NCBI GenBank assembly: GCA_051362555.1
Contig: JBPQGU010000013.1
Location: 248,001-312,000 of the forward strand
Origin: Lingula anatina
Lineage: Eukaryota > Animalia > Brachiopoda
Direction: 5' to 3'
Length of the DNA stretch: 64,000 nt
In this document: in pieces, positions 48,334 through 49,364 of the stretch
Numbering within the stretch: position 1 is the first letter of the stretch
Layout: every line of letters begins with the position of its first letter
The notes under the pieces: model-generated
Databases searched by the model: none
What the model was told of the DNA's origin: nothing
What the model saw: the letters and a program-made list of their open reading frames with translations, nothing else
Position numbers and translations under genes: made by a program

Positions 48334-48553
48334 GTTGAATAGCTTGTGCTTGACGACTCCTGTACCACGTGACCTCTTTTCTGCGGCCGTAATTCGCTGA
48401 TTTCGCCTACGTCATCGCTGATTTTCGACCAGATCGCTGATTTTGGGTTTGTGATTGGTTGGAATCGCTGATTTGAGGAAAATCAGCGATGACGTATGCA
48501 TGAGTCGTCATGTGATTCGGGGTCACTCTACAGAGAAGCTACGCATGTCCCCT
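48334..48553 (-). promoter_or_regulatory. Terminal/promoter region of copy 1 (TCGCTGATTT repeats, 19-bp inverted repeat, CCAAT, CACGTG)
   Basis: TCGCTGATTT at 48394, 48415, 48434 and 48465, inverted at 48480. Perfect 19-bp inverted repeat at 48408-48426 / 48478-48496. Lies between the element end and the ATG. Confidence 0.6.
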
Positions 48554-48559
48554 GCGCAA
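48554..48559 (+). other. GCGCAA target-site duplication / spacer between tandem copies 1 and 2
   Basis: Context is CCT|GCGCAA|AGG. ACAGAGAAG (48530-48538) and its reverse complement CTTCTCTGT (48575-48583) each lie exactly 15 nt from the hexamer. GCGCAA is the U6 ISL-loop sequence described as the Dada-U6 TSD. Confidence 0.85.
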
Positions 48560-49364
48560 AGGAACCCACTCAATCTTCTCTGTCGGCCCAGCGCAAAAAA
48601 GAAAAAAAGAAAAAAGGCAAAAAATGCGAAAATTACGCCAAAAATCCCGGGGCGGATGGGGGCAATTTCGGCGCGCAACTTGGCACCAGATGCGTTTCAA
48701 GCCCCAAAAACGATTAAAAACGTTAGTGCGCACCTGGAATGTTTGCCGTGGCCGGGTGAATGGTTCCCCCCTAAAGAAAGGACCCCACGCCTAGTTCCTG
48801 TAAACATTGCGGTTTGTTGTGGTCACATGACCGTGTCACAGTAGCCGACGGCCAAATGACCGTTAACATCGTCAAAAAAGGCCCTTCTCACTGCTCCTGC
48901 AGTTGAGAAATGTGCTTACAAAGTAGCAAATTGACAAACGCAAACAAAACACAGCATCAAAATACAGAACGAAAGTGCCGGCGTTATAACGAAAGTGCAT
49001 AACGAAAGTGCATGTGTATGCAAATGCAAATCGCCAAAAACGGGCCAAACTTGCGCCCTCTAGGAGTTAAGTAGGAGTTAAGACCCAGATCTTGGCTGAA
49101 TAGCGTCGCCTAATGCGTTTTGCATGCTAAAAAAACGTAAATAACCTTGGTTGTGACAGATTGCTACAGTTGAGATCGTGGTGGGGAAAAGAAGGGGAGG
49201 GGGGGGGAATACAGAAACGTGCTCTGCATTCTACTTTCAATTTACTTGTACTGTTCATCAAAATTAAATTAAATGTACAAATTCCGTTTTATTTTCAGTT
49301 TACTGTTTTTTTTTAAAATCAATATACAAATTGAAACAAAGAATGCAGGTTGTATATGAATCAA

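What the first reader, a model, noticed from the sequence alone, without database searches (positions are those of the whole stretch)
48529..48583. Transposon ends mimic the U6 snRNA target on both sides of the TSD (attP/attB-like junction)
Seen: the junction reads TACAGAGAAGCTACGCATGTCCCCTGCGCAA-AGGAACCCACTCAA. Recalled vertebrate U6 reads TACAGAGAAGATTAGCATGGCCCCTGCGCAA-GGATGACACGCAA. That gives 27/31 ungapped identity through GCGCAA and a further 9/13 after a 1-nt insertion. ACAGAGAAG and CTTCTCTGT sit symmetrically at positions 16-24 of each end. Established: Dada-U6 inserts at GCGCAA in U6 and has such subterminal repeats. Inference: the transposase reads the U6 ACAGAGA box as a pseudo-end, so each insertion regenerates a target. 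The weaker similarity of the other end to the U6 3' side suggests the joined ends derive from, or converged on, a U6 segment.
Basis: partly seen in the sequence, partly recalled or inferred. Interest (0 to 1): 0.78.

Follow-up and report, generated by a model that had tools for sequence, protein, structure and literature searches.

The report
Dada transposon end copied from target
This is the joint between head-to-tail copies of a known kind of jumping gene (Dada-U6) that lands in U6 splicing-RNA genes; the short signal its ends share with U6 was published in 2013, but in this family the last 11 bases of one end also read like U6, likely because they were copied from the target.

Summary
GCGCAA (48554-48559) joins two copies of a 9,008-bp Dada-U6 DNA transposon in a head-to-tail array. 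The junction matches U6 at 27 of 31 bases and recurs at 57568. Sixteen matches are the 9-bp box and the 6-bp duplication, both published with the target-recognition idea (PMC3706591). What is not in the text of those papers: the 15 bases between box and core match U6 at 11 (10 of the last 11; P about 1e-5 to 1e-4), against 4-7 in 17 other right ends. Two metagenome contigs show the same head-to-tail joint with non-U6 spacers, so the extra likeness is not needed for tandems. The nearest relative shares six non-U6 bases upstream of the box, so the left side is likely an element end with a tip copied from U6. The other end's resemblance to the U6 3' side is weak alone (6 of 10 free bases) but recurs across ten ends, as an inherited motif. 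No right end bordering a U6 3' half was seen, so use of this tip as a terminus is unproven. New variant of a known kind.

The parts
48554..48559 (+). 6-bp core GCGCAA (target-site duplication type) between two head-to-tail copies
   Evidence: the same core at published Dada-U6 insertions and in 14 U6|left-end junctions
48530..48538 (+). Right-end subterminal box, identical to the U6 box, positions 16-24 from the core
   Evidence: 9 of 9; published
48539..48553 (+). Right-end tip, 11 of 15 identical to U6 (10 of the last 11); likely copied from the target
   Evidence: other right ends 4-7 of 15 (and hand counts)
48524..48529 (+). Six bases upstream of the box shared with the right end of the nearest relative L006 and unlike U6 except for the last base
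   Evidence: 15-nt exact match including the box
48560..48583 (+). Left end of the next copy: conserved AGG tip and inverted box (48575-48583)
   Evidence: 21 of 24 identical to the L006 left end; same type as published Dada-U6 5' termini
48394..48489 (.). Five 9-bp subterminal repeats (four direct, one inverted) between the gene start and the right end; they form a hairpin
   Evidence: z = -3.8 for 48385-48587
48560..57567 (-). Complete 9,008-bp Dada-U6 copy
   Evidence: period 9,014 bp
50108..57347 (-). Intron-containing Dada transposase gene; the last 8 exons (54576-50108) splice GT-AG into 1,069 codons without a stop; N-terminal exons only partly modelled
57543..57597 (+). Second copy of the same junction (core 57568-57573)
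43707..48553 (-). First copy, lacking its left 4.2 kb, joined bluntly to the satellite
57574..64000 (-). Third copy, runs off the window

Best explanation
The site is the joint between two head-to-tail copies of a Dada-U6 DNA transposon, and the U6-like tip of its right end was likely copied from the U6 target in an ancestor of this family. Shown: the joint, the symmetric boxes, a Dada transposase with its catalytic motifs, real U6 5' halves joined to related left ends at the same core, and head-to-tail joints in two other families. Inferred: the transposase measures from the box and joins a left end 6 bp beyond whatever carries the box, whether a U6 5' half or another copy's right end. Tandems then follow from repeated insertion and were likely multiplied by unequal exchange. 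Inferred: a U6|core|left-end junction and a right-end|core|left-end junction share the box, the core and 9 kb to the right, so gene conversion or a strand exchange resolved left of the core would overwrite the tip with U6 sequence. The tip would stay usable because only the box and the distance seem to matter.
For: Left ends of this type follow a genuine U6 5' half in 14 of 18 metagenome hits; 13 reach Rfam's cut-off and L002 holds only 21 nt left of the core. Two of the 18 (L006, L009) are box|spacer|core|left-end joints with a Dada transposase and 6 of 15 spacer identity to U6. L006 is the nearest row to the window's transposase (62% identity; path 0.73, support 93/63, unstarred) and shares the six bases upstream of the box. 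Fifteen published right ends score 4-7 of 15 and at most 5 of the last 11 (hand counts), so the U6-like tip looks derived. Three of the four mismatches lie in the four bases next to the box, as a conversion border would leave. Copies differ by 1 substitution and 27 gap positions in 11,294 columns; the 3 indels covered by contigs side with copy 2 (compared by eye). In run X3 the contigs break exactly after 48548, the last base unlike U6, and the left-end contig is deeper (158 vs 131), as a merging U6 5' half would give (indirect). [quoted passage not shown]
Against: No right end followed by a U6 3' half was seen in the window, in the 20 loci or as a contig break at 48560 in the three runs with cover, so the tip is not shown to act as a terminus. 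Runs X1 and X2 show no break after 48548 either. The merging sequence in X3 was not displayed and could be any variant. The window holds no U6 gene and the array's left edge is a truncated copy against a satellite. The tree has no reference of known non-U6 target and the win+L006 pair is not strongly supported. The direction of change rests on few relatives.
Confidence: 0.6

Rival explanations
1. Selected mimicry with joined-end integration: the element forms a right-end|core|left-end junction, which integrates at U6 by single-end transfer and branch migration, and likeness of the tips to U6 is favoured because it eases that exchange.
For: Ten distinct left tips average 5.7 of 10 free positions identical to the U6 3' side at offset -1, against 1.1-3.6 at eight other offsets; 0.08% of random 10-mers do as well; L006 reaches 8 of 10. 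Dada-tA and Dada-tY carry their hexamer and replace the target's. IS256-family circles have 6-8 bp spacers. Targeted IS26 integration needs identical reacting ends (PMC7986276 passages).
Against: Seventeen other right ends have no likeness beyond the box. The left tips are related by descent, so they count as about one observation. Published fish left tips score 1-5 of 10, and five Dada-tA left tips, which do not target U6, score 3-5 of 10 (hand counts). No circle was observed; a tandem joint and a circle joint look the same.
Confidence: 0.2
2. Dead relic: a deletion or recombination through the box fused the element's interior to the U6 5' half of a neighbouring insertion, the right end is no longer usable, and the unit was amplified passively as a macrosatellite.
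For: No right-end|U6-3' junction was seen. Four mismatches from U6 are fixed in nearly identical copies. The array abuts a 362-bp satellite through a truncated copy.
Against: The box and its 15-nt distance are intact, the conserved exons are open, and the junction is the same in two studies. Relatives with very different tips remain mobile, so a U6 tip need not be harmful.
Confidence: 0.15
3. The spacer likeness is chance on top of the published box and core.
For: One family among about 18 examined; the Rfam score is under the family cut-off.
Against: Binomial P of 1.2e-4 for 11 of 15 and 8e-6 for 10 of 11 in a fixed register (the 11-base span was chosen after seeing the data); 0 of 17,921 unit 15-mers reach 11.
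Confidence: 0.03

Closest known systems
Dada-U6 DNA transposons (Kojima and Jurka 2013, PMC3706591, main text read to ref. 14 plus Figs S2-S4; Kojima 2022, PMC8869645, parts 1-4 of 5 plus supplement searches)
   Same: About 9 kb, intron-rich DDE/DxxH transposase running opposite to U6, GCGCAA core, left end starting AGG, 9-bp subterminal boxes shared with U6 at the same distance.
   Different: The right-end tip is 11 of 15 U6-identical (published ends 4-7). Here the copies form a nearly identical head-to-tail array, and no U6 flank was seen directly. The main figures were not visible to me, only their legends.
Tandem Dada-U1A/U1B insertions in zebrafish (PMC3706591 Fig. S3)
   Same: Head-to-tail Dada copies, in one case separated by the hexamer.
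   Different: U1 target; pairs of copies; the tips shown are not described as target-like beyond the box.
Tandem transposon dimers by double insertion, later expanded into arrays: P, hobo, R1 (McGurk and Barbash, bioRxiv 10.1101/158386, passages)
   Same: One duplication between copies; an insertion keeps its target; expansion by unequal exchange.
   Different: No end that resembles the target is involved there.
Copy-out/paste-in and targeted insertion of IS256 (ISCth4), IS911, IS30, IS26 (PMC7780238 and PMC7986276, passages)
   Same: One end is joined a few bases beyond a recipient end recognised through a subterminal site; insertion next to end sequences; Dada shares the DxxH motif with IS256.
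   Different: Bacterial and biochemically shown. For Dada no circle or single-end transfer has been shown in the papers I found.

Membership tests
Dada superfamily | DDE triad with DxxH after the second D | tested here: met
   Motifs KMDSTKK, MYVDRDCC, LDVWHF, SLESFH; D-D spacing 68 as in Dada-U6_DR (567-635), D-E 191 vs 176
Dada superfamily | N-terminal CCCC and C-terminal CCHC zinc fingers | tested here: met
   CCCC spacing 5/33/3 vs 5/35/3, and 135 residues to the first D in both; CCHC spacing 3/10/9 in both, read by hand (my script pattern for it missed)
Dada superfamily | No long terminal inverted repeats, short subterminal inverted repeats | tested here: met
   The two ends match at 14 of 24, mostly the box and the AGG tip
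Dada-U6 | [quoted passage not shown] | tested here: met
Dada-U6 | Left end of the Dada-U6 type after GCGCAA/GCGAAA | tested here: met
   13-21 of 24 identity to the left ends of the 16 genuine metagenome loci, the pattern fixing part of them; same type as
Dada-U6 | A copy flanked by U6 5' and 3' halves with a 6-bp duplication | tested here: inconclusive
   No U6 in the window, no genome held; only an indirect contig break in run X3
Dada-U6 | Transposase groups with named Dada-U6 families | tested here: inconclusive
   51-56% identity to U6-flanked L007/L012, 62% to L006; the tree had no named references and no starred set holds the window's protein
Dada-tA | AGTAAGCCC-type repeats at the gene-start end and a tRNA-Ala flank | tested here: not met
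   0 such repeats (motif); no tRNA by Rfam
U6 snRNA gene | Full-length match to RF00026 above the gathering score | tested here: not met
   20.8 of 44 bits; only a 31-nt block aligns
Copy-out/paste-in or attP/attB-type element | Free joined-end circle that integrates at the target | not testable with these tools
   A tandem joint and a circle joint have the same sequence

The most novel reading that the evidence does not exclude
Dada-U6 is an animal DDE transposon that works like bacterial end-targeting insertion sequences: it treats the U6 gene as a recipient end, integrates through a joined-end intermediate with strand exchange across the core, and now and then swaps tip sequence with its target. 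This family's right tip and the L006 left tip (12 of 14 with U6) would be two such captures, and the target could be reprogrammed by placing the box 15 bases from a core.
Probability: 0.25. Interest if true: 0.72.

Novelty: new variant of a known kind. Interest (0 to 1): 0.4.

Why it matters
How Dada transposases find one site in multicopy RNA genes is open, and both Dada papers name targeted gene delivery as the use. This family is a natural experiment: a right end that is nearly the target itself, an open transposase, and relatives that form the same tandems with unrelated tips. Together these give a clean test (box, distance and tip varied one at a time) of whether the target is read as a transposon end. 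If the tip is only a captured relic, the finding is a modest addition to a described family.

Tried and rejected
No whole genome is held, so the array could not be followed past 64000. Five short junction motifs were not found in the 2022 sequence set (its 70-letter line breaks can hide matches), so the family seems not to be in it. Of 23 Dada-U6 records shown, 12 were scored for the right end and 11 left out because their start shows no box; 3 more came from Fig. S2. One scored end has the box out of register (GyAc) and one lacks it (CT). L013 and L014 (metagenome) and L019 and L020 (viral scan) match the pattern but have no U6, no full box and no transposase hit; I treated them as chance and left them out. 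A functional or variant U6 gene was rejected, and so was Dada-tA. The FastTree of 124 rows gave only weak groups; the IQ-TREE used 45 of them. The primary IS911 targeting paper is not held; I rely on passages of a review and a structure paper. Paper searches found three papers naming Dada-U6, of which I read two, and none describing an extended U6-like tip or a Dada circle. Repbase Reports and subscription journals are not covered, and the main figures (Fig. 3 of the 2013 paper aligns the termini with U6) were not visible. The protein alignment supplement of the 2013 paper could not be read.

Full report
Setting. Bases 1-43706 are a 362-bp satellite of about 120 copies. From 43707 to the end lies a head-to-tail array with a period of 9,014 bp: a truncated copy (43707-48553), a full 9,008-bp copy (48560-57567) and a copy that runs off the window, each pair separated by one GCGCAA. 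The overlapping parts differ by 1 substitution and 27 gap positions in 11,294 columns. Three of those gaps lie in the stretch covered by public contigs, which show the other form; by eye that is the form of copy 2, so they are likely assembly errors.

The observation. Rfam's U6 model matches it weakly (E=0.01, 20.8 bits, cut-off 44). Against a genuine U6 5' half from locus L011 it is 27 of 31 identical, and 3 of 20 just upstream. The boxes lie 16-24 nt from the core on both sides. Contigs from 3 of 4 runs laid, from two studies, cross the junction, so it is not peculiar to this assembly, though the best run may be its source.

The element. The unit encodes an intron-rich protein on the minus strand with Pfam DUF6729 and up to 65% identity to animal homologs over the catalytic exon. 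The last eight exons splice at GT-AG into 1,069 codons without a stop. The spacings of the DDE triad, DxxH and both zinc fingers match those printed for Dada-U6_DR. The end at 48560 has the form of published Dada-U6 5' termini. A pattern scan of metagenome contigs gave 18 hits: 14 join such an end to a real U6 5' half at the same core, 2 are head-to-tail joints, and 2 are apparent chance matches. Direct proof of insertion in U6 for this family is missing: the window has no U6 gene and no genome is held. Earlier scan notes on the same genome call the host a brachiopod; I did not check this.

What is already known. [quoted passage not shown] McGurk and Barbash state that a site-specific insertion with a duplication preserves its target and so yields tandems that later expand (passages). 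The box, the core and the regenerated target are therefore not new. They account for 15 of the 27 matches, and one more base is shared with a relative's element end.

What is new. The 15 bases between box and core match U6 at 11 positions, and at 10 of the last 11 (binomial P 1.2e-4 and 8e-6, the second span chosen after the fact; none of 17,921 unit 15-mers reaches 11). Fifteen published right ends score 4-7 of 15 by hand count (3; 12 of the 23 records, the other 11 showing no box at their start), and L006 and L009 score 6. L006 and L009 form the same head-to-tail joint without the likeness, so it is not what makes tandems possible. L006, the nearest row in the tree (unstarred support 93/63; 62% identity), shares the six bases upstream of the box with the window, where U6 differs. 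The left side is thus likely a Dada right end whose tip was replaced, not a plain U6 fragment.

The other end. The window's left tip matches the U6 3' side at 6 of 10 free positions, which is marginal alone. Ten distinct left tips average 5.7 at that offset against 1.1-3.6 at eight others, and L006 reaches 8. They share ancestry, however. Published fish tips score 1-5, and five Dada-tA tips, which target tRNA-Ala, score 3-5 (hand counts). I read this as an inherited end motif whose origin in U6 is possible but not shown.

Contig evidence on flanks. In run X3 one contig ends at 48578 and the next starts at 48549, a 30-base overlap. The second is deeper (158 vs 131), and 48548 is the last base that differs from U6. 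That is what a U6 5' half merging into the left end would leave, but the merging contig was not displayed. No run breaks at 48560, where a U6 3' half would branch off, and X1 and X2 show neither break. Low-depth branches can be pruned, so this is not proof of absence, but it leaves the function of the tip as a terminus open.

Mechanism. Most likely (0.6) the transposase binds the box and joins a left end 6 bp beyond the tip position of any box-bearing DNA, whether U6 or another copy's right end. This resembles recipient-end recognition in IS911 and IS256-family elements (passages). Tandems arise by repeated insertion and grow by unequal exchange, and conversion or an exchange resolved left of the core copied U6 bases into the tip. 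All steps after the anatomy are inferred. Rivals are selected mimicry with joined-end integration (0.2), a dead U6 relic amplified passively (0.15), and chance (0.03).

Verdict. The feature is real, largely explained by the published Dada-U6 design, and has one unreported twist within my searches: a right end that is almost the target. New variant of a known kind; interest 0.4.

Noticed in passing
L006:169-214 and L009:4103-4148 (minus strand): Head-to-tail Dada-U6 joints (box, 15 nt, GCGCAA, left end) in two other families; tandem Dada-U6 was not mentioned in the text of the two papers read. The L006 left tip matches U6 at 12 of 14.
   Followed up: partly
L002, L003, L004, L016 versus L007, L009, L012: Very similar left ends lead into a transposase running with U6 in the first group and against it in the second, suggesting inversion of the interior between the ends.
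   Followed up: no
PMC8869645 Dataset S1 and L009 left of the junction: Many Dada-U6 right ends carry repeated TGGAAC/GTTCCA motifs; U6 has TTGGAAC just upstream of the box. Possibly a second target-like element; read by eye, no statistics.
   Followed up: no
window 43706/43707: Blunt join without microhomology between the 362-bp satellite and a copy cut inside the catalytic exon; real rearrangement or assembly join.
   Followed up: partly
window 1-43706: Very homogeneous 362-bp satellite, about 120 copies, mostly 99-100% identical.
   Followed up: no
window 49496-49911 and 58501-58916: 72-bp minisatellite of about six copies downstream of the transposase gene.
   Followed up: no
window 48408-48496: Long imperfect hairpin made of the subterminal repeats in the promoter region (z = -3.8).
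   Followed up: partly
window 47912-47996: Runs X1 and X2 hold a second sequence about 80% identical here at lower depth (about 126), likely another Dada family; X3 shows two alleles over 48003-48120.
   Followed up: no
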